Assembly (NCBI GenBank): GCA_964514975.1
Contig: CAZESS010000013.1
Location: 1 to 60,423 of the forward strand
Source of the DNA: an uncultured Thermoplasmatales archaeon
Lineage (GTDB): Archaea > Thermoplasmatota > E2 > UBA202 > DSCA01
Direction: 5' to 3'
DNA length: 60,423 nt
Shown here: positions 1,757 through 49,747 of the stretch, in pieces
Layout of the letters: every line of letters begins with the position of its first letter
How positions within the stretch are numbered: the first letter of the stretch is position 1
Made by a program: the position numbers and the translations under genes
The notes under the pieces: model-generated
The model's input: the letters and a program-made list of their open reading frames with translations, nothing else
What the model was told of the DNA's origin: nothing
Databases searched by the model: none

Positions 1757-1909
1757 TTACACAAATTCGAAGGAATCAAAGCAGCTATTGCAGGTGGCCG
1801 TTTTTATATTCCATGTTCGCCTGCCACATTTAGGGCAGATTGCATAATATTTGTTCAGTATTTTTACTTTCAACTCCTTCATTCGCTTCTTTTTCTCTTC
1901 TGCGCTCAT
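1757..1909 (-). CDS. 50-aa zinc-finger protein with L37e-like C-x2-C-x11-C-x2-C motif (absent from the ORF track)
   Basis: Hand translation: MSAEEKKKRMKELKVKILNKYYAICPKCGRRTWNIKTATCNSCFDSFEFV*. Upstream TTTATATA box and GAGGT SD-like sequence. Confidence 0.75.
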   Translation of the reverse strand: MSAEEKKKRMKELKVKILNKYYAICPKCGRRTWNIKTATCNSCFDSFEFV

Positions 1910-2089
1910 ACTATAGTAACCTCAACTGTATATAAACATATTTGTATTCGTAAAATATCTCATGATGTAACCGTATCATGCCGATGTATATTCCTCGGCA
2001 ACACCCATGCCGTGCCTGTACCCGGAGCGTAAGAAAAAAATACCCATTGTCCTTATGGAGTCGTGGTCACAGGGTTTGACCACGTGCCC

Positions 2090-2162
2090 GGGCTAGTGGT
2101 CTAGGGGTTATGACGTCGCCCTTACGAGGCGAAGGTCGCCGGTTCAAATCCGGCCTAGCCCA
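2090..2162 (+). tRNA. tRNA-Val(UAC)
   Basis: GGGCTAG/CTAGCCC acceptor stem, TCGCC-CT TAC GA-GGCGA anticodon arm, TTCAAAT T loop, no encoded CCA. Confidence 0.97.
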
Positions 2163-2163
2163 T

Positions 2164-2544
2164 TTATTGCTGTGTGGCGCTGACCTGCACTCTGCCGGGT
2201 GGCCCTTTGAGGAGGATGTCTATCCGCTGTCGTTCGTGTGGTTTTAGTCGCTCAAGGGTGAGGGTCATCTGCCGGTCGTTTATCATGCCGCCGTCGGTGA
2301 TGCGCGTGGTGCCGAGGTCGTATATTTTCCATCCCTTGATGATGGCCGGCGAGACGGCTATCTCGATGGTTGCATCTATGGGGCATCCATCGTCCTGGCT
2401 GATGTAGATGACGGCGATGCCGCGGCCGTCGCTGCACTGCCAGCCGGGGAGCTCCTCGGGTGGTGTGCCGTTGCCTTCGTTTTCGTCGACGGGCGCCGGC
2501 TGTCCGTTTATGCAGCGGTATCGGAAGACCTGGATGTGTATCAT
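2164..2544 (-). CDS. Hypothetical protein
   Basis: Only plausible ORF between the two tRNAs; start set at ATG 2544; no recognised motif. Confidence 0.55.
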   Translation of the reverse strand: MIHIQVFRYRCINGQPAPVDENEGNGTPPEELPGWQCSDGRGIAVIYISQDDGCPIDATIEIAVSPAIIKGWKIYDLGTTRITDGGMINDRQMTLTLERLKPHERQRIDILLKGPPGRVQVSATQQ

Positions 2545-2640
2545 CGTGGGATGAGGATGCAAGGGGGTATTAATCTTTTTGCTTCCGGCGGGTGGATGAC
2601 CGAAAACGTTTAGAACGTTGCTCTAATAAAGGTAGGCATG

Positions 2641-2713
2641 AGCCCCGTGGTGTAGTGGTCTAGCATAAGAGGCTCTGGACCTCTTGACGGCAGTTCGAAT
2701 CTGCCCGGGGCTG
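2641..2713 (+). tRNA. tRNA-Gln(CUG), A1-U72 pair, G73 discriminator
   Basis: AGCCCCG/CGGGGCT acceptor stem followed by G; AGAGG-CT CTG GA-CCTCT anticodon arm; GGCAG-TTCGAAT-CTGCC T arm. Confidence 0.97.
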
Positions 2714-2761
2714 TCCGTTCCCCCTGCCGTCTGGCGGGGCGATATATGCGGGAGACAGACA

Positions 2762-4441
2762 ATGGATACAGCTGGTTCAGAGGGCCGTGACTTCATCCGT
2801 ACCATTATCGACGAGGACCTGGAGACCGGCAGGTATGACGGCCGCGTTCATACCAGGTTTCCGCCGGAGCCCAACGGCTATCTGCATGTCGGGCATGCGA
2901 AGTCCATCTGCCTGAACTTTGGCATCGCCGAGGAATACGGTGGCATGTGCAACCTCCGGTTTGATGACACCAATCCCATCAAGGAGGCAGAGGAATACGT
3001 GGAGTCGATCATCGAGGATGTCCGATGGCTTGGCTTCGACTGGGAGGACCGGCTGTTTTTCGCCTCCGACTATTTTGACCAGATGTATGACTATGCGGTG
3101 CAGCTGGTTGAGCAGGGAGACGCCTACGTGGACGACCTGTCGGCGGAGGAGATACGTCGCTACCGGGGAACGCTGACGAAGCCGGGTAAAAACAGCCCCT
3201 ATCGGGACCGTGCCGTGGAGGAAAACCTGGGCATGCTGGAGCGGATGAAGGCCGGCGAATATGGGGATGGCGAGCGGGTGCTCCGCGCCAAAATCGACAT
3301 GTCGCATCCAAACATGAACATGCGGGACCCGGTGATGTACCGGATACTGCATGCCACGCATCATCGCACCGGCGACAAATGGTGTATCTATCCCACCTAT
3401 GACTGGGCGCACGGCCTTGAGGACTCGATAGAAAACATCACGCATTCCATCTGCACGCTGGAGTTCGAAAACCATCGCCCGCTGTATGACTGGTTCCTCG
3501 ACCGCCTTGACATCTATCACCCTCAGCAGATAGAGTTCGCGCCGCTCAACCTGACCCATATGGTGATGAGCAAGCGGATGCTCCGGTCGCTGGTCGAGGC
3601 CGGGCAGGTTGACGGATGGGACGACCCGCGCCTGCCGACGATACGGGGGATGCGCCGCCGTGGCTATCCGCCGGCCGCCATCCGCGAGTTCTGCAGCCGC
3701 GTCGGGGTGTCGAAGACCCTGAGCACCATTCCCATCGAGTTCCTTGAACACTGTGTCCGCGATCAGCTCAACAGGACGGCGACCCGCTATATGGGCGTGC
3801 TGCATCCACTCCGCCTGGTCATCGAAAATCTGCCGGAGGGTGAGGTGCAGGAGATGGACGTGGTGAACAACCCGGAGAATCCCGCTGCTGGGACACGAAC
3901 GGTGCCGTTTTCCCGTGAGGTTTACATCGAGCGCGGCGACTTCCAGCTGGAGCCGTCGAAAAAGTTCTACCGGCTGGCGCCTGGCCGCGAGGTCCGCCTG
4001 CGGAACGCCTACCTGGCCACCTGTCATGACGTCGTAACAGAGAACGGCGAGGTCGTCGAGCTCCGCTGCACCGTGGACCCGGACAGCAAGGGCGGCGACG
4101 CGCCCGACGGGCGGCGGGTCAAGGCGACGCTGCACTGGGTTCCCGCATCGCATGCCGTCGACGCAGAGCTCAGGGTGTACAACACGCTGTTCGATGTGGA
4201 GGATCCCGCCGGCGGGGATGGCGACTTCCGGGACCATCTCCACCCCGATTCACTCGAGGTGGTGCCGCATGCAAAGGTCGAGCCGGCGGTGCGGGAGCTC
4301 AGCCCGTATGACCGGTTCCAGTTTCTCCGCCTCGGCTATTTCTCCATCGACCCCGACACGACGGACGACAGGCTGGTCATCAACCAGACGGTCGAGCTCC
4401 GGGACACCTGGGCCCGCATAAAAAAACAGCGCCAGCAGTAA
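2762..4441 (+). CDS. glnS: Glutaminyl-tRNA synthetase (bacterial-type GlnRS)
   Basis: [106 protein letters not shown]. Real start is ATG 2762; the longer ORF overlaps the tRNA. Confidence 0.96.
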
Positions 4442-4444
4442 CCG

Positions 4445-5005
4445 TCATTCATGTATCTCGCCTTTTTCGACGACGTTGACCACTACCCGTTTTATCCGCT
4501 CGACCGCGCGCTCCGTCTCCCCGAGCTCCCTGTCGATGTCCCCTGATGTCTTGTGGCGTGCCAGCTCCAGGTTGCCCTCGGCGATGCAGATGGGGTTGAA
4601 AAAATAGTGGGCGGTGTCCCGCTTGAAGCAGAGCTCTTTTTCGATCGCTCGCTGTTTTTCGTCGCTGAGCATGCCGACCAGGGCGGCGACGATGATGAAC
4701 AGCAGCGCCGCTATCAGGCCGGAAAACAGTTCCTCCTGCGGGCTGCCGGTGAGCATGGCGATGGCGACGACCGAGCCGCCCAGGAAGGCTGCGACGGCAA
4801 TGCCCCGTGTGCCCCACCAGAAGGCGGCGAGCACGATGGGGAGATACAGGAAATGGAGGTAGAAGACGTATTCCTCGAGCTCCGCCCGGTACAGGGATAT
4901 CAGGAACAGGGAAAACGCTATGAGAAAGAGCACCGTGAGCACCTTGACGGTTTCCTCGAGCCGCTCGCCCGGGAAGCCATCCCCGGGCTGATACGCGTCG
5001 CCCAT
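4445..5005 (-). CDS. Membrane protein (about 4 TM, DUF4118-like) with C-terminal HisKA-like H-box and no ATPase domain
   Basis: YLHFLYLPIVLAAFWWG membrane motif; TAHYFFNPICIAEGNLEL H-box; ends ~40 aa later. Confidence 0.75.
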   Translation of the reverse strand: MGDAYQPGDGFPGERLEETVKVLTVLFLIAFSLFLISLYRAELEEYVFYLHFLYLPIVLAAFWWGTRGIAVAAFLGGSVVAIAMLTGSPQEELFSGLIAALLFIIVAALVGMLSDEKQRAIEKELCFKRDTAHYFFNPICIAEGNLELARHKTSGDIDRELGETERAVERIKRVVVNVVEKGEIHE

Positions 5006-5031
5006 GCTATCGGAGCATAAGTGCATGCAAC

Positions 5032-6297
5032 CTATTTAAAACATGCTTTTTTATTCGGGGATGCCATCGGTGCATCGCCGAGCTCCTCCTCGATGGCCAT
5101 CAGCCGGTTGTACTTTGCGGTGCGCTCCCCCCTGCAGGGTGCCCCTGATTTTATCTGCCCCGTCCCCAGCGCGACGGCCAGGTCGGCGATGAACGCGTCG
5201 CAGGTGTCACCGGAGCGATGGCTGACCATGACCCCGTAGCCATGCTCGCGGCAGACCGCTGCCACGGCGAGGCTTTCGGACAGTGTTCCGATCTGGTTTG
5301 GCTTCAGCAGCAGCGCGTTGCACGCCCCCCGCTTGATGCCCTGCCTGAGCAACATCTCGTTGGTCACGAACAGGTCATCCCCGACAATCTGGAGACGGTC
5401 GCCCATCGCCTCCGTCATGGCGATGAAGCCCTCCCAGTCGCCCTCGGCAAACGGGTCCTCGATCGACATGATGGAATACGTCTCGCTGAGTTGCTCATAG
5501 TAGGCCAGGAGCTCCTCGCGGGTGAGCCATCGCCCCAGCTCGTAGCGCCCCCTGCGATAAAAGCTGGTCGCGGCGGCATCCAGCGCGAGCGCCATTTCGC
5601 TTTCGTAGCCGTTGTCCTCGACCGCCTTTACGATGAGGTCGAGCGCCTCCTCGGTGCTCTTGAGCGGGGGCGCGAAGCCACCCTCGTCGCCCACGTTGAC
5701 ACCCGGGCTGCCGTAGCGCCGTATGAGAAGCGCTTTGAGCGTGTGATATACCTCGCTGCACATCTGCACCGCCACGGCGAAGCTTTTGGCGCCCGTCGGA
5801 ACGACCATGTGCTCCTGGATGGCGAGGTCGTTGCCCGCATGCTCGCCGCCGTTTATCACGTTCATGTAGGGCACCGGCATCACCCGATGGCCGCCGAGAT
5901 ATTCATAGAGCGGCAGATCGCTGCAGCGGGCGGCGGCGCGGGCGCAGGCCAGGGAGACGGCCAGGATGGCGTTTGCCCCCAGCGATGCCTTGTTGTCGGT
6001 CCCGTCGAGCTCGACCATCGTTTGGTCGATGGCCTCCTGCTCGCGGACATCCATGCCCATTGTGGCGGGGGCGATGATATCGGTGACGTTTCCGATGGCA
6101 CGGGTGACACCTCTGCCGTGGAAAGCATCGTCGTTGTCGCGGAGCTCGACGGCCTCCCGGGAACCGGTGGAGGCACCGGAGGGCACCATGGCGCTCCCCG
6201 TGCATTCTCCAGCCGTGACGGATGCCTCGACAGTTGGATTGCCCCGGCTGTCGAGCACCCACCGCGCCGCCACATCTGTAATCGAAAAATCGGTCAT
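5032..6297 (-). CDS. eno: Enolase
   Basis: LDSRGNPTVE, VPSGASTG, VGDEGGFAP, QIVGDDL, LLKPNQIG, SHRSG, KYNRL. Confidence 0.98.
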   Translation of the reverse strand: MTDFSITDVAARWVLDSRGNPTVEASVTAGECTGSAMVPSGASTGSREAVELRDNDDAFHGRGVTRAIGNVTDIIAPATMGMDVREQEAIDQTMVELDGTDNKASLGANAILAVSLACARAAARCSDLPLYEYLGGHRVMPVPYMNVINGGEHAGNDLAIQEHMVVPTGAKSFAVAVQMCSEVYHTLKALLIRRYGSPGVNVGDEGGFAPPLKSTEEALDLIVKAVEDNGYESEMALALDAAATSFYRRGRYELGRWLTREELLAYYEQLSETYSIMSIEDPFAEGDWEGFIAMTEAMGDRLQIVGDDLFVTNEMLLRQGIKRGACNALLLKPNQIGTLSESLAVAAVCREHGYGVMVSHRSGDTCDAFIADLAVALGTGQIKSGAPCRGERTAKYNRLMAIEEELGDAPMASPNKKACFK

Positions 6298-47168: not shown

Positions 47169-47882
47169 ATGATAACCATGAGGCATGGAGGACATGTGCT
47201 TATTCTGTGTGCCATCGCGCTGCTCATCACGCCGTCATTGCTGGCGCCCCTGTCCGCGGCGACCGAGGCCGAGGGTGTGGAGCTCCGGTTTACCATGTCG
47301 ACGGATGCGGGCACCCGGACGGAAACGCAGCATGTGCCGGCAAGCAGGATAGAGGGGCTGCTGCAGACCATCGAGCGCATACGGCAGGATTTTTATCTGC
47401 TGCGTGTGGCGGGCTCCGCGGCCGAGCAGGAGGATGCGAAAGAGATGCTGTTTTCTGATGTGGCGTCGCTTGAATGGCTGAAGATTTTTGCCTACCTGGT
47501 TGACAGGATTGAGGACATGGTCGATGCCTATATCACGCCCTGGACGAAGGCCACCTGTCTTGCGCACGTGCTGAGCTATGGCCATGGCAGGGCGCATGTG
47601 CCGCTGCATCATTCGCTGCCCTTCGGTGTCACCAGGGAAACGTTTGTGGGGCTGCTGCTGCGGCCGGTGTGGTGGCAGTACAACAGCCTGAGCATGACGG
47701 TGGTGCGGAAGGGCCATCTGCTGCCCCCGCGCATCGACTGGTGGGACATGTGGGGCCGTCAGCAGGGGATCATGGCCGGCTTCCTGGGCCTGCACATGAG
47801 CATCGATCGCCCGGTGCTGCCGGACACCCATCTGTTCGTCGGCCGCACCCTTTTTATGGTGAACAAGGATTTGGCGTGGTGA
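47169..47882 (+). CDS. Secreted hypothetical protein
   Basis: Signal-peptide-like N-terminus; stop overlaps the gatE start. Confidence 0.7.
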   Translation: MITMRHGGHVLILCAIALLITPSLLAPLSAATEAEGVELRFTMSTDAGTRTETQHVPASRIEGLLQTIERIRQDFYLLRVAGSAAEQEDAKEMLFSDVASLEWLKIFAYLVDRIEDMVDAYITPWTKATCLAHVLSYGHGRAHVPLHHSLPFGVTRETFVGLLLRPVWWQYNSLSMTVVRKGHLLPPRIDWWDMWGRQQGIMAGFLGLHMSIDRPVLPDTHLFVGRTLFMVNKDLAW

Positions 47883-49747
47883 TGGACTACGAGCAGCTTG
47901 GATTGCGGGCCGGCCTTGAGATCCATCAGCAGCTCGACACGGGGAAGCTTTTCTGCCGCTGTCCCTCCGACATCAGCGACGAGGTCGATTACACGTTCCG
48001 GCGGCAGCTCGTGCCCACCCGTTCGGAGCTGGGCGATGTCGACCGGGCGGCGCTGGCGGAGGCACGGCGGGAGCGCCGGTTTGTCTATCGTGCATCCAAT
48101 AGGTCGACCTGTCTGGTTGAGGCAGACGAGGAGCCGCCGCATGCTGCCAACCAGGATGCCATCGATGTCTGTCTGACGGTGGCGATGCTGCTGGACGCCC
48201 GCGTGGTGGACGAGATACAGTTCATGCGGAAGATCGTGATTGATGGCTCGACGACGTCGGGGTTTCAGCGGACCGGGCTGGTTGCCACCGGCGGCGCTGT
48301 CGACGACGTGGATGTGGAGACCATCTGCCTGGAGGAGGATGCGGCCCGGATGCTGGAGGAGCAGGACCGCGTGGCCGTGTACGGCCTCGACCGCCTGGGT
48401 ATCCCGCTCGTTGAGGTTGCGACGGCGCCCGATATCAGGTCGCCGGAGCAGGCCGAGCAGATCGCGCTTCGCATCGGCCGGCTGCTCAGAGCGACGGGGC
48501 AGGTGCGGCGCGGCATCGGCACCATCCGGCAGGATGTCAACGTGTCCATCGAGGGGGGCAGCCGTGTTGAAATAAAGGGCGTCCAGGAGCTGGGGAGCAT
48601 CGCCGCTATTTTGCGGTATGAGGTGCGCCGGCAGCGGGAGCTTCTCGTGGTGAGAGACCGCCTTCGCTCCAGGACGTCGAGGGATGCCCTCGACATGGTG
48701 TCGGTGGTGGATGTGAGCGAGGTGTTCGAGGGCATCGCCTCGGATATGGTGGCGCGGGCGCGTGCCGACGGCGTGGTGATGGCGGTCAGGCTGCCGGGGT
48801 TTGACGGGCTGCTGGGGGGTGTGACCTTTGAGGACGCTCGCCTGGGCAACGAGCTCGCGGCGCATGCGGAGCATGTCGGCGGCGGTATCATGCATTCCGA
48901 CGAGCTGCCCGCCTATGGCATTTCGGGGCGTGAGGTTGCATCGCTCCGTGAGCGGCTTGCATGCGATGATGGGGATGCGTTTGTCCTGTCGTTTGGCCCT
49001 GCAGGGGTGGCACGGTGCTGTCTTGGGCAGGTGATTTCTCGAGCAGCTGCCGCGTTTGAGGGCGTGCCCGAGGAGGTCCGGCGGGCGCTGCCCGATGAAA
49101 CGACGCGCTACATGCGGCCGATGCCCGGTGCCGAGCGCATGTATCCCGAGACGGATGTGCCGCCCGTTGCCGTCCCGCGGGAGCGCCTCGACCGTGTTGC
49201 GGGGTCGCTGCCCGAGCTCCCGGAGGAGAAGCGGGAGCGGTATGTGGCGCTGGGGCTGAGCGAGGAGGAGGCTGGCCAGCTGGTGTACGGCGACCGTGAC
49301 GCCTGGTTTGACGTGCTGGTGGAGCGATATCCCGGTATGGCGAAAACGGTTGCCCGGATGCTGTTGCATACGGTGCCGGAGGTTGAGCGGGAGACGGATG
49401 GCGACGTGGAGCTTGACATGGTCGACAGGGCGTTGTCGGGCGTGCAGCGGGACCTGTTTTCCCGGGAGGGTGTTCCGCAGGTGCTTTCGTATCTGGCGGC
49501 GCATCCCGATGCCTCACTGGAGGATGCGGCTGCCGCCTGCGGGCTTGAGGCCGTTGAAGAGGCGGCGGTGCGGGACGTGGTTGAGCAGGTGGTTGATGAC
49601 AACATGGGGCTGGTGGAGGAGCAGGGCGAGCATGCCGTCGGAGCGCTGATGGGCATTGCTATGGAGGAGCTGCGGGGGAGGGCGGATGGCTCGCTGGTGC
49701 ACCGTTTGCTTTTGAGCGAGGTGCGCCGCCATCTGAACCACACGTGA
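47882..49747 (+). CDS. gatE: Glu-tRNA(Gln) amidotransferase subunit GatE
   Basis: GLEIHQQL, KLFCRCP, MRKIVIDGS, LEEDAAR, LDRLGIPL, RGIGTIRQD, EIKGVQ, HSDELPAYGI, RMYPETD, C-terminal LMG..M..LRGRADG. Confidence 0.97.
   Translation: MDYEQLGLRAGLEIHQQLDTGKLFCRCPSDISDEVDYTFRRQLVPTRSELGDVDRAALAEARRERRFVYRASNRSTCLVEADEEPPHAANQDAIDVCLTVAMLLDARVVDEIQFMRKIVIDGSTTSGFQRTGLVATGGAVDDVDVETICLEEDAARMLEEQDRVAVYGLDRLGIPLVEVATAPDIRSPEQAEQIALRIGRLLRATGQVRRGIGTIRQDVNVSIEGGSRVEIKGVQELGSIAAILRYEVRRQRELLVVRDRLRSRTSRDALDMVSVVDVSEVFEGIASDMVARARADGVVMAVRLPGFDGLLGGVTFEDARLGNELAAHAEHVGGGIMHSDELPAYGISGREVASLRERLACDDGDAFVLSFGPAGVARCCLGQVISRAAAAFEGVPEEVRRALPDETTRYMRPMPGAERMYPETDVPPVAVPRERLDRVAGSLPELPEEKRERYVALGLSEEEAGQLVYGDRDAWFDVLVERYPGMAKTVARMLLHTVPEVERETDGDVELDMVDRALSGVQRDLFSREGVPQVLSYLAAHPDASLEDAAAACGLEAVEEAAVRDVVEQVVDDNMGLVEEQGEHAVGALMGIAMEELRGRADGSLVHRLLLSEVRRHLNHT

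What the first reader, a model, noticed from the sequence alone, without database searches (positions are those of the whole stretch)
2641..4441. Bacterial-type GlnRS in an archaeon, encoded directly behind tRNA-Gln(CUG)
Seen: a complete 559-aa class I synthetase with GlnRS signatures ([28 protein letters not shown], and the C-terminal anticodon beta-barrel motifs [18 protein letters not shown]). It starts 48 bp after tRNA-Gln on the same strand, has host-like GC and sits among archaeal genes. Known: the textbook view is that archaea lack GlnRS and make Gln-tRNA(Gln) through non-discriminating GluRS plus GatDE. Inference: an old, ameliorated bacterial transfer that provides direct glutaminylation and may be co-transcribed with its substrate. 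I cannot check whether similar cases already exist in databases.
Basis: partly seen in the sequence, partly recalled or inferred. Interest (0 to 1): 0.9.

Follow-up and report, generated by a model that had tools for sequence, protein, structure and literature searches.

The report
Bacterial glutaminyl-tRNA synthetase in archaea
An archaeon carries a working-looking bacterial-type enzyme that loads glutamine directly onto its tRNA, placed right behind that tRNA's gene, next to the usual archaeal two-step route, and relatives show every stage of the new enzyme replacing the old route.

Summary
Confirmed. tRNA-Gln(CUG) lies at 2641-2713. A 559-aa ORF (2762-4441) 48 nt behind it scores as glnS (710 bits, cut-off 426) and aligns end to end with E. 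coli GlnRS.

All three genes are intact and under purifying selection.

It is not a one-off. 73 of 401 sampled genomes of the phylum have GlnRS. All Thermoplasmatota copies form one clade (100/100) nested among bacterial GlnRS. 64 of 75 loci have a tRNA-Gln gene beside glnS, against 3 of 69 bacterial loci. 29 of 75 carriers lack GatE, including closed genomes with only gatD relics.

The glnS-linked tRNA here has the bacterial discriminator G73, and the other tRNA-Gln keeps archaeal A73. Among G73-bearing carriers, A73 copies occur in 18 of 25 with GatE and 3 of 26 without. But G73 also occurs in GatDE-only families, and some carriers use A73, so it is no strict rule.

Reviews to 2022 state that archaea lack GlnRS. 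My searches found only a passing mention in Heimdallarchaeia.

Function and co-transcription are inferred, not shown.

The parts
2600..2615 (+). Promoter-like box (BRE/TATA-like, ccgaaaacgtttagaa) 26-41 nt upstream of tRNA-Gln(CUG)
   Evidence: Read. The same box stands at the same distance in G001, G003 and G006, and AAAnnTTATATA-like boxes stand 25-45 nt upstream of the tRNA in other families. Reading it as an archaeal promoter is inference from general knowledge; no transcript start was mapped.
2641..2713 (+). tRNA-Gln(CUG), 73 nt, A1-U72, G2-C71, C3-G70, G10, discriminator G73
   Evidence: ARAGORN; direct parse. The body is archaeal in type: acceptor stem, D arm and T arm match the genome's other tRNA-Gln. 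It is the only tRNA-Gln(CUG) in the genome and the only G73 match.
2714..2761 (+). 48-nt spacer, no T-run longer than 2, GGGAG at 2750-2754 seven nt before the ATG
   Evidence: In 29 of 32 loci with a tRNA-Gln at most 200 nt upstream, the spacer has no T-run of 5 or more, and most end in GGTG/GGAG-like motifs.
2762..4441 (+). glnS: bacterial-type glutaminyl-tRNA synthetase, 559 aa (stop at 4439-4441)
47882..49726 (+). gatE: subunit E of the archaeal Glu-tRNA(Gln) amidotransferase (coordinates of the model match)
   Evidence: TIGR00134, 636.1 bits against a cut-off of 319.55, no stops. dN/dS 0.17-0.24 within the genus. Partner gatD lies at G000:C2:68040-69221 (507.2 bits). tRNA-Gln(UUG, A73) lies at G000:C4:29289-29361 on the - strand. 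The GluRS gene lies at G000:C10:21569-22948.
2090..2162 (+). tRNA-Val(UAC), conserved upstream neighbour within the genus and in G006
   Evidence: tRNA-Val stands about 600-1330 nt upstream of glnS in G000, G001, G003 and G006.

Best explanation
The ORF is a functional glutaminyl-tRNA synthetase of bacterial type. An ancestor within Thermoplasmatota acquired it by horizontal transfer, and the gene is now fully at home in the archaeal genome. It sits directly behind tRNA-Gln(CUG), probably in one transcript made from a promoter upstream of the tRNA; tRNA processing would then release the mRNA. In this genome it has not replaced the archaeal indirect route. GluRS, GatD, GatE and a second tRNA-Gln(UUG) are all kept intact. 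The two tRNA-Gln genes differ at the discriminator: G73 (the bacterial state) on the glnS-linked CUG species, and A73 (the archaeal state) on the UUG species. My preferred reading, at about 45%, is a division of labour: GlnRS charges tRNA-Gln(CUG, G73) directly, and GluRS plus GatDE make Gln-tRNA on tRNA-Gln(UUG, A73), which would keep both routes under selection. Shown: the gene, its family, the linkage, the coexistence, the selection, and the distribution of states in relatives. Inferred: glutamine charging, co-transcription, and which enzyme uses which tRNA.
For: Family and active site.

Not an artefact: contigs of studies X2, X3 and X4 bridge 2687-2918 or 2640-2841 and 3988-4584 or 4295-4871. 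The same locus occurs in closed genomes.

Purifying selection: glnS dN/dS 0.07-0.12, gatE 0.17-0.24, gatD 0.14-0.25 among genus members, with no stops.

One archaeal clade: 51 of 51 Thermoplasmatota rows at 100/100; 81 of 81 in FastTree at support 99.

Linkage: a tRNA-Gln lies in the fetched flank of 64 of 75 Thermoplasmatota loci and upstream on the same strand in 57 of 75. In bacteria, 0 of 69 have one upstream and 3 of 69 downstream.

The enzyme suffices alone in relatives: 29 of 75 carriers lack GatE (3 of 13 in the order; 26 of 62 outside it). G351 and G416 (single contigs) have no GatE or GatB and only gatD relics, one with 3 stops. The closed chromosome behind L010 has no GatD, GatE or GatB.

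Division of labour:
- In the order, all 38 tRNA-Gln genes found in the 26 GlnRS-less genomes have A73, while 10 of 13 carriers have a G73 copy.
- Among G73-bearing carriers, an A73 copy is present in 18 of 25 with GatE and 3 of 26 without.
- G157 and G348 hold a full A73 set elsewhere plus a G73 pair flanking glnS.
- G011, which lacks GatD and GatE, has a tRNA-Gln(UUG) identical to that of its congener G009 except A73 to G73.
- Both tRNAs keep A1-U72, which GatDE reads together with the D-loop (PMC2943598, passages).
Against: No enzyme assay and no RNA data: no RNA run holds the locus.

G73 is not specific to GlnRS. Of the 70 genomes in 401 with a G73 tRNA-Gln, 21 have no full GlnRS. Families f34, f38 and f40 (95-99% complete, some closed) have G73 tRNA-Gln, GatE and no GlnRS. 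So G73 is compatible with the indirect route there.

G73 is not needed either. f23 (14 of 14 with GatE), f39 (0 of 4 with GatE), G009, G014, L010 and L012 have A73 tRNAs beside glnS. In f39, L010 and L012, GlnRS must therefore charge A73 tRNAs.

In the set of 25 G73-bearing, GatE-positive carriers, 7 showed no A73 copy.

Related genomes are not independent, so none of these counts is a probability.

Genome gaps can mimic absences, although closed genomes agree.

No eukaryotic GlnRS was in the tree, the root on GluRS is a very long branch, and the bacterial sister group is weakly supported (Planctomycetota, 71/91).
Confidence: 0.8

Rival explanations
1. GlnRS already charges both tRNA-Gln species. 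The GatDE route is redundant, a back-up on its way out, and the A73/G73 difference is a neutral lineage trait.
For: Relatives with GlnRS alone exist in at least 8 families. Some of them use A73 tRNAs (f39, L010, L012). G73 also works with GatDE in f34, f38 and f40. Within the genus, gatD and gatE evolve about three times faster at the protein level than glnS (dN about 0.15 against 0.05). In G323 and G247 the A73 copies have damaged anticodon loops although GatE is present.
Against: gatD and gatE are intact with dN/dS 0.14-0.25 in four GlnRS-bearing genus members. That is not neutral decay. A73 copies track GatE closely in f4 (11 of 16 against 1 of 18) and in the order (9 of 10 against 0 of 3). 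Whole families keep both routes (f23 14 of 14).
Confidence: 0.35
2. The protein is GlnRS-like in sequence but does another job in the archaeon, for example glutamylation or a tRNA modification like GluQRS.
For: No assay. Position 235 (E. coli numbering) is Asn, as in the E. coli chain 1qrs that is the best PDB match. That 1qrs is a relaxed-specificity mutant is recalled, not from a call.
Against: It scores far above the glnS cut-off and below the GluRS and GluQRS cut-offs. It has the full anticodon-binding domains. The C229 and Q255 columns are GlnRS-like in 150 of 150 sequences. Asn at 235 also occurs in 15 of 67 bacterial GlnRS. Genomes without any amidotransferase need it for Gln-tRNA.
Confidence: 0.04
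3. Bacterial contamination or a chimeric contig.
For: The genome is a metagenome bin with 2.92% estimated contamination.
Against: Archaeal genes and archaeal-type tRNAs flank the gene on one 60-kb contig. Contigs from three other studies bridge both boundaries. Orthologous loci lie in closed archaeal chromosomes. GC3 is host-like.
Confidence: 0.01

Closest known systems
Bacterial GlnRS (E. coli enzyme; PDB 1gtr, 1qtq, 1qrs and others)
   Same: Full-length alignment at 684 bits. HIGH and VMSKR motifs. The columns of E. coli R30, Y211, C229, Q255, L136 and I129 are conserved. Same three Pfam domains. No appended domain.
   Different: The host is an archaeon. The substrate tRNAs are archaeal in type (A1-U72, C3-G70). 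The gene is linked to tRNA-Gln genes, which 0 of 69 bacterial loci show upstream. Asn replaces Asp at E. coli position 235 in 77 of 81 Thermoplasmatota copies.
Bacteria that hold both GlnRS and an amidotransferase (Deinococcus, Thermus, Bdellovibrio; PMC4206432, abstract seen)
   Same: The direct and the tRNA-dependent route coexist in one cell.
   Different: There GatCAB is explained by its other client, Asn-tRNA. Archaeal GatDE amidates only Glu-tRNA(Gln) (PMC2943598), so here both routes make the same product. This genome has no GatB.
Helicobacter GluRS2 and Acidithiobacillus GluRS1/GluRS2 (PMC9976931, passages)
   Same: Duplicated Glx enzymes split the tRNA-Glu and tRNA-Gln species between them by acceptor-stem and D-arm features.
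   Different: Those are two GluRS feeding one amidotransferase. Here a foreign GlnRS stands beside the native GluRS/GatDE, and the split is only inferred.
GlnRS genes of Heimdallarchaeia
   Same: Archaeal hosts; both tRNA-Gln genes (G73) lie beside glnS in L062 and L063. GlnRS is named in passing as a neighbour of coxABC in bioRxiv 10.1101/2024.07.04.601786 (one passage).
   Different: 56% identity, a long branch, placed apart from the Thermoplasmatota clade with weak support. The AU test does not reject one common archaeal clade (p 0.23; p 0.77 against the quick tree). The tRNAs lie downstream on the opposite strand.
Deinococcus-type GlnRS/YqeY fusion (NF011291)
   Same: The best-scoring NCBIfam model (841 bits).
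   Different: The match covers only model positions 11-562 of 769. The protein ends at residue 559 and has no YqeY domain.

Membership tests
GlnRS (NCBIfam TIGR00440, glnS equivalog) | Whole-protein score above the curated cut-off | tested here: met
   710.3 bits against 425.8; model positions 1-523 of 524
GlnRS (NCBIfam TIGR00440, glnS equivalog) | Class I signature motifs and three-domain build with beta-barrel anticodon-binding domains | tested here: met
   HVGH and VMSKR are in the translation and conserved in the alignment. PF00749, PF03950 and PF20974 all match.
GlnRS (NCBIfam TIGR00440, glnS equivalog) | Residues that tell Gln from Glu enzymes (E. coli C229 and Q255; their roles are recalled from the literature) | tested here: met
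   C and Q in 150 of 150 GlnRS aligned, including the window protein; R and L in the genome's own GluRS
GlnRS (NCBIfam TIGR00440, glnS equivalog) | Charges tRNA-Gln with glutamine | not testable with these tools
   Indirect only: closed relatives have GlnRS and no GatD, GatE or GatB
Bacterial-type (as against eukaryotic) GlnRS | No N-terminal appended domain; groups with bacterial sequences | tested here: inconclusive
   559 aa, aligned 8-553 to E. coli 7-551; eukaryotic chains match only from their residue 244-285 on. Nested among bacterial sequences. But no eukaryotic sequence could be placed in the tree.
Archaeal non-discriminating GluRS (TIGR00463) | Score above the cut-off | tested here: not met
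   361.4 against 401.75. A separate GluRS gene lies on contig C10.
GluQRS / YadB | Truncated paralogue without an anticodon-binding domain | tested here: not met
   Best score 65.3 bits against a cut-off of 250; both anticodon-binding domains are present
GlnRS/YqeY fusion (NF011291) | C-terminal YqeY domain | tested here: not met
   The match ends at model position 562 of 769
Archaeal indirect pathway (GluRS + GatDE) | gatD and gatE both present and intact in the same genome | tested here: met
   507.2 and 636.1 bits, no stops; dN/dS 0.14-0.25

The most novel reading that the evidence does not exclude
Thermoplasmatota are archaea caught in the act of replacing the archaea-specific GatDE route with a bacterial GlnRS. 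The intermediate genomes run two parallel Gln-tRNA systems, each with its own tRNA set: a glnS-linked set, mostly G73, for GlnRS, and a native A73 set for GluRS/GatDE. That would be a natural orthogonal synthetase/tRNA pair living beside the native one. The window's genome would be a minimal form of it, with one isoacceptor per system. The variable discriminator in this phylum would then explain why the tRNA-identity barrier proposed in 2000 for all archaea fell here.
Probability: 0.4. Interest if true: 0.85.

Novelty: new variant of a known kind. Interest (0 to 1): 0.78.

Why it matters
Reviews up to 2022 state that no archaeon has GlnRS. They treat this as an anomaly and explain it by archaeal tRNA-Gln being unreadable to GlnRS, naming A73 against bacterial G73 (PMC9499178 and PMC8762117, passages). 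A survey of more than 2500 genomes found none in archaea (PMC5388404, passages).

Here a whole archaeal clade has the enzyme. The genomes offer natural series:
- GatDE only
- both routes with split or doubled tRNA sets
- GlnRS only, with gatD relics

This makes an old hypothesis directly testable with a handful of transcripts and three recombinant enzymes. It gives a rare view of how an essential translation pathway is swapped without breaking the code. It also points to natural GlnRS/tRNA pairs that work in an archaeal setting, which is of interest for genetic-code engineering.

I cannot exclude that this is described in a paper outside the searchable library, or that databases already name these proteins routinely.

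Tried and rejected
Chimera or contamination: rejected.

Mis-called GluRS: rejected.

G73 as a general switch that shuts the tRNA out of the GatDE route: rejected as a rule after the phylum-wide pattern search. f34, f38 and f40 have G73, GatE and no GlnRS.

G73 as a requirement for GlnRS: rejected (f23, f39, L010, L012).

A tRNA co-transferred from bacteria: rejected. The linked tRNA has the archaeal A1-U72 and shares acceptor, D and T arms with the native tRNA-Gln.

A glnS-plus-tRNA cassette moving among archaea: not pursued. The linked tRNA body type also occurs without an adjacent glnS in G291 and G407, and in G404 as far as its contig reaches. f1 GlnRS falls in two places in the gene tree, which hints at transfer within the phylum or old paralogy.

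A separate Heimdall transfer: favoured by the best tree but not established (AU p 0.23 and 0.77).

Expression: no RNA holder was listed for the locus. All runs laid were DNA contigs.

Relaxed selection on gatDE: the ratios are higher within genus g1 than for the one G012-G007 pair. There is no proper baseline, so I make no claim.

Asn at E. coli position 235 as an adaptation to C3-G70: left as a lead, because 15 of 67 bacterial GlnRS also have Asn. In one search three row labels were one residue off; the row printed as 'N236' is the D235 column.

My acceptor-stem parser gave wrong ends for two rows (G416 and G236, length 76). One search shows a G73 match just upstream of glnS for both.

Database names of the archaeal proteins could not be looked up. 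Supplements of papers were not opened; the genome tables of PMC5388404 may list what was scanned.
Full report
THE OBSERVATION

tRNA-Gln(CUG) lies at 2641-2713 on the + strand. An open frame runs from 2684 to 4441. NCBIfam places it in glnS (TIGR00440, 710.3 bits, cut-off 425.8) and below the cut-offs for archaeal GluRS (361.4 against 401.75) and GluQRS. Pfam finds the class Ic catalytic domain and both beta-barrel anticodon-binding domains. Against the PDB it aligns from residue 8 to 553 with E. coli GlnRS residues 7-551 (684 bits).

In an alignment of 150 GlnRS plus the genome's own GluRS, the columns of E. coli C229 and Q255 hold C and Q in every GlnRS, and R and L in the GluRS. R30, Y211, HIGH and MSK are conserved. 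The roles of those residues are recalled from the literature, not taken from a call.

The neighbours are archaeal in kind: TBP, an MCM-like protein, enolase, a DEAD-box helicase. GC3 of glnS (0.793) matches them (0.75-0.84).

IS IT REAL?

The window is contig C13 of a 1.96-Mb genome in 66 contigs, 98.9% complete with 2.9% contamination.

I laid Logan contigs of four runs over 1900-5200. In the possible source sample, pieces 2090-2918 and 3385-4598 cover both gene boundaries without a difference. In three other studies, related strains give pieces 2687-2918, 2640-2841, 3988-4584 and 4295-4871 that bridge tRNA-Gln to glnS and glnS to the downstream gene.

The same arrangement stands in many other genomes, including closed chromosomes. 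A chimera or a contaminant is excluded as far as sequence can tell.

The genome keeps the whole archaeal indirect route:
- gatE in this same window (47882-49726, 636 bits)
- gatD on contig C2 (507 bits)
- a GluRS on C10
- no GatB

It has exactly two tRNA-Gln genes. The CUG species lies beside glnS. A UUG species on contig C4 is followed by tRNA-Glu(UUC). Both have A1-U72 and the same T arm, so the linked tRNA is native in type. They differ at the discriminator: G73 on CUG, A73 on UUG.

A 2022 review names exactly this position (archaeal A73, bacterial G73) as part of the reason why GlnRS never entered archaea (PMC9499178, passages).

Within the genus, all three genes are intact. glnS has dN/dS 0.07-0.12, gatE 0.17-0.24 and gatD 0.14-0.25. 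Both routes therefore look functional.

DISTRIBUTION

In the window's order, 13 of 39 genomes have a GlnRS above the cut-off, and all 39 have a GluRS-level match.

In an even sample of the phylum, 73 of 401 genomes have one (46 of 262 high-quality genomes; 40 of 162 genera). It is concentrated in some families (f4 34 of 54, f23 14 of 24, f1 9 of 11) and not found in others (f10 0 of 48, f13 0 of 36, f31 0 of 58).

Record titles of the loci name Thermoplasmatota, Thermoplasmata, Thermoplasmatales and Methanomassiliicoccales MAGs, and two Heimdallarchaeota MAGs.

PHYLOGENY

FastTree on 151 sequences puts all 81 Thermoplasmatota GlnRS in one clade (support 99) inside bacterial GlnRS. I left out L005 and L006 (duplicates of L086 and L085), L013 (masked residues) and rows under 440 aa.

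A careful IQ-TREE run used LG+G4 on 92 rows and 561 columns. I chose 51 Thermoplasmatota, 2 Heimdall, 38 bacterial rows and the genome's GluRS as outgroup. The Thermoplasmatota clade gets 100/100. Its sister is Planctomycetota, at only 71/91. The Heimdall pair sits on a long branch elsewhere, with weak support.

An AU test does not reject one clade of all archaeal GlnRS (p 0.77 against the quick tree; p 0.23 against the careful tree). I therefore do not claim two transfers.

No eukaryotic GlnRS could be obtained. The direction bacteria to archaea rests on the nesting, on the many bacterial phyla around one tight archaeal clade, and on the patchy archaeal distribution.

GlnRS of family f1 falls in two places in the gene tree. 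That suggests transfer within the phylum or old paralogy.

LINKAGE TO tRNA-Gln

I fetched glnS with flanks from all 75 carriers: 13 from the order and 62 from the phylum sample.
- 64 of 75 have a tRNA-Gln in the flank.
- 57 of 75 have one upstream on the same strand.
- Of the 67 with at least 250 nt of upstream sequence, 37 have tRNA-Gln(CUG) within 250 nt.
- Of the 66 with at least 350 nt downstream, 28 have a tRNA-Gln within 300 nt downstream.
- Of 69 bacterial loci, none has a tRNA-Gln upstream and 3 have one downstream.
(All.)

In 32 loci with a tRNA-Gln at most 200 nt upstream, a BRE/TATA-like box stands 25-45 nt before the tRNA. In the window it is ccgaaaacgtttagaa at 2600-2615, identical in G001, G003 and G006. 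29 of the 32 spacers have no T-run of 5 or more, and most end in a GGTG/GGAG-like motif before the start codon. Nine spacers are 21-37 nt, too short for a promoter of their own.

Co-transcription of the tRNA and the mRNA is thus the economical reading, but it is inference. No RNA run holds the locus.

REPLACEMENT OF THE INDIRECT ROUTE

In the order, GatD and GatE are both missing from 3 of 13 carriers: G011 (91% complete), G013 (85%) and G038 (71%). Among the 26 non-carriers, only one 70%-complete genome lacks both, and one 87%-complete genome lacks GatD only.

Outside the order, 26 of 62 carriers lack GatE; among high-quality genomes, 22 of 37 have it. Whole sampled groups differ: f39 0 of 4, f11 0 of 2, f23 14 of 14.

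The single-contig genomes G351 and G416 have no GatE and no GatB. Each retains only a short C-terminal gatD relic of 58 bits, and the one in G351 has three stop codons. The closed chromosome behind L010 has none of GatD, GatE or GatB.

These genomes can only make Gln-tRNA with GlnRS. That is the strongest genomic evidence that the enzyme works in archaeal cells.

THE DISCRIMINATOR

Within the order the pattern is clean. All 38 tRNA-Gln genes found in the 26 non-carriers have A73. 10 of 13 carriers have a G73 copy. Where GatDE is kept, G73 sits on the CUG species and the UUG species stays A73 (G000, G003, G006, G012; in G004 the CUG gene is cut by the contig end but matches the G73 pattern). 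Where GatDE is gone, every tRNA-Gln found has G73 (G011 and G038 both species; G013 one). Exceptions are G009 and G014 (both species A73) and G005 (a G73 copy with a UUG anticodon).

G011's UUG gene is identical to that of its congener G009 except for A73 to G73.

Across the phylum sample, the 3' end of tRNA-Gln with G73 occurs in 70 of 401 genomes. 49 of those are carriers and 21 are not. Of the 21:
- Five are in f4. One has glnS cut by a contig end, one has glnS with an internal gap, and three have none adjacent.
- Sixteen are in f34, f38, f40 and f47.
The five of those sixteen that I checked (in f34, f38 and f40) have GatE at 414-698 bits. The four of these I scored against glnS (G400 was not scored) gave only GluRS-level hits.

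So G73 is compatible with the indirect route and is not a mark of GlnRS.

Nor is G73 needed. f23, f39, L010 and L012 have A73 tRNAs beside glnS, and f39, L010 and L012 have no GatE.

A narrower regularity does hold. Among carriers that have a G73 tRNA-Gln, an additional A73 copy is found in 18 of 25 with GatE and 3 of 26 without. In f4 the figures are 11 of 16 against 1 of 18; in the order, 9 of 10 against 0 of 3. The exceptions are G380 and two f39 genomes.

G157 and G348 have four tRNA-Gln genes. A G73 CUG/UUG pair flanks glnS. An A73 CUG gene, and an A73 UUG gene followed by tRNA-Glu, lie elsewhere. Their GatE-less congeners G219 and G244 have only G73 matches. In G323 and G247 the A73 copies carry changes in the anticodon loop; this may be decay or assembly error.

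All these counts come from related genomes and are not independent.

READING

The gene is a working GlnRS of bacterial origin. The lineage is in a mixed state in which it coexists with GatDE.

I prefer a division of labour between the two tRNA species (about 45%) over plain redundancy (about 35%). Four observations lead me there:
- Both routes are under selection.
- Each isoacceptor exists here in only one discriminator form.
- A73 copies vanish together with GatDE in the G73 lineages.
- Some relatives keep two complete tRNA sets.

GatDE is known to read the D-loop and A1-U72 (PMC2943598, passages), which both tRNAs keep. Any exclusion would therefore have to act at GluRS or through other features, such as the 1-2 nt shorter glnS-linked tRNAs of f4 (71-72 nt against 73). 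The f34, f38 and f40 cases show that G73 alone cannot be the barrier.

An alternative worth testing is that a variable discriminator in this phylum came first and opened the door to GlnRS.

LITERATURE

Seen as passages:
[quoted passage not shown] - PMC5388404 (2016), a survey of more than 2500 genomes, detected none in archaea.
- bioRxiv 10.1101/2024.07.04.601786 names GlnRS among the neighbours of coxABC in Hodarchaeales and Kariarchaeaceae, without comment.

Searches found no paper that describes GlnRS in Thermoplasmatota. The only two papers holding both a GlnRS term and a Thermoplasm* term use them in unrelated contexts. The library lacks most subscription journals, and supplements were closed.

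VERDICT

The protein itself is an ordinary GlnRS. The setting, the tRNA linkage and the coexistence with GatDE are what is new.

Noticed in passing
relatives: e.g. G015:C12:108376-109705, G017:C5:9855-11187, G009:C13:7344-8760, G012:C5:15127-16565: In many genomes of the order, tRNA-Gln(UUG) lies within about 160 nt of gatD, and it is usually followed by tRNA-Glu(UUC). So the native route also keeps an enzyme gene next to its substrate tRNA gene. In the window's own genome gatD (contig C2) and this tRNA (contig C4) are apart.
   Followed up: partly
G351:C1:2113069-2113290 and G416:C1:536851-537003: Short C-terminal relics of gatD (58 bits each; the G351 one has 1 TGA and 2 TAA inside) in single-contig genomes that have GlnRS but no GatE or GatB.
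   Followed up: partly
L254 and L259 (G323), L258 (G247): A73 tRNA-Gln genes with altered anticodon loops: an 8-nt loop, a loop that ARAGORN reads as a 4-base anticodon, and a CUG-type body that now reads UUU. They lie in genomes that still have GatE. This could be decay of the native tRNA set or assembly error.
   Followed up: partly
L235 (G315:C88:1500-3961): glnS matches only query residues 1-72 and 232-559, with about 105 nt between the two pieces. It is either a broken gene or an assembly fault. tRNA-Gln genes flank it as usual.
   Followed up: no
window position 237 of the protein (E. coli position 235): Asn in 77 of 81 Thermoplasmatota GlnRS and Asp in 4. Bacteria have Asp in 32, Asn in 15 and other residues in 20 of 67. 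Heimdall has Thr in 2 of 2. In E. coli this residue reads the 2-71 and 3-70 pairs (recalled), and the archaeal tRNA-Gln has C3-G70.
   Followed up: partly
G003:C6:83105-83177 (L086): The glnS-linked tRNA-Gln(CUG) has C at position 33 instead of the near-universal U33.
   Followed up: no
G407 (single contig, 83% complete): No match to the glnS model at E <= 1e-5, not even at GluRS level, although every other genome tested gave a GluRS-level match. It has a G73 tRNA-Gln(CUG) with no glnS behind it.
   Followed up: no
G011:C115:32-52 and 157-177, C109:4166-4186: Three matches to the G73 3' end of the CUG-type tRNA-Gln, two of them 125 nt apart. This suggests tandem copies of the tRNA in the GatDE-less genome.
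   Followed up: no
window 2164-2562 (- strand): A 132-aa ORF between tRNA-Val and tRNA-Gln with no Pfam match.
   Followed up: no
L008 (record CP070751, 5.2 Mb): Three tRNA-Gln genes around glnS (CUG-G73 and UUG-G73 upstream, CUG-A73 with a different body downstream) and two GatE genes in the genome. This is either a double system or a mixed assembly.
   Followed up: no
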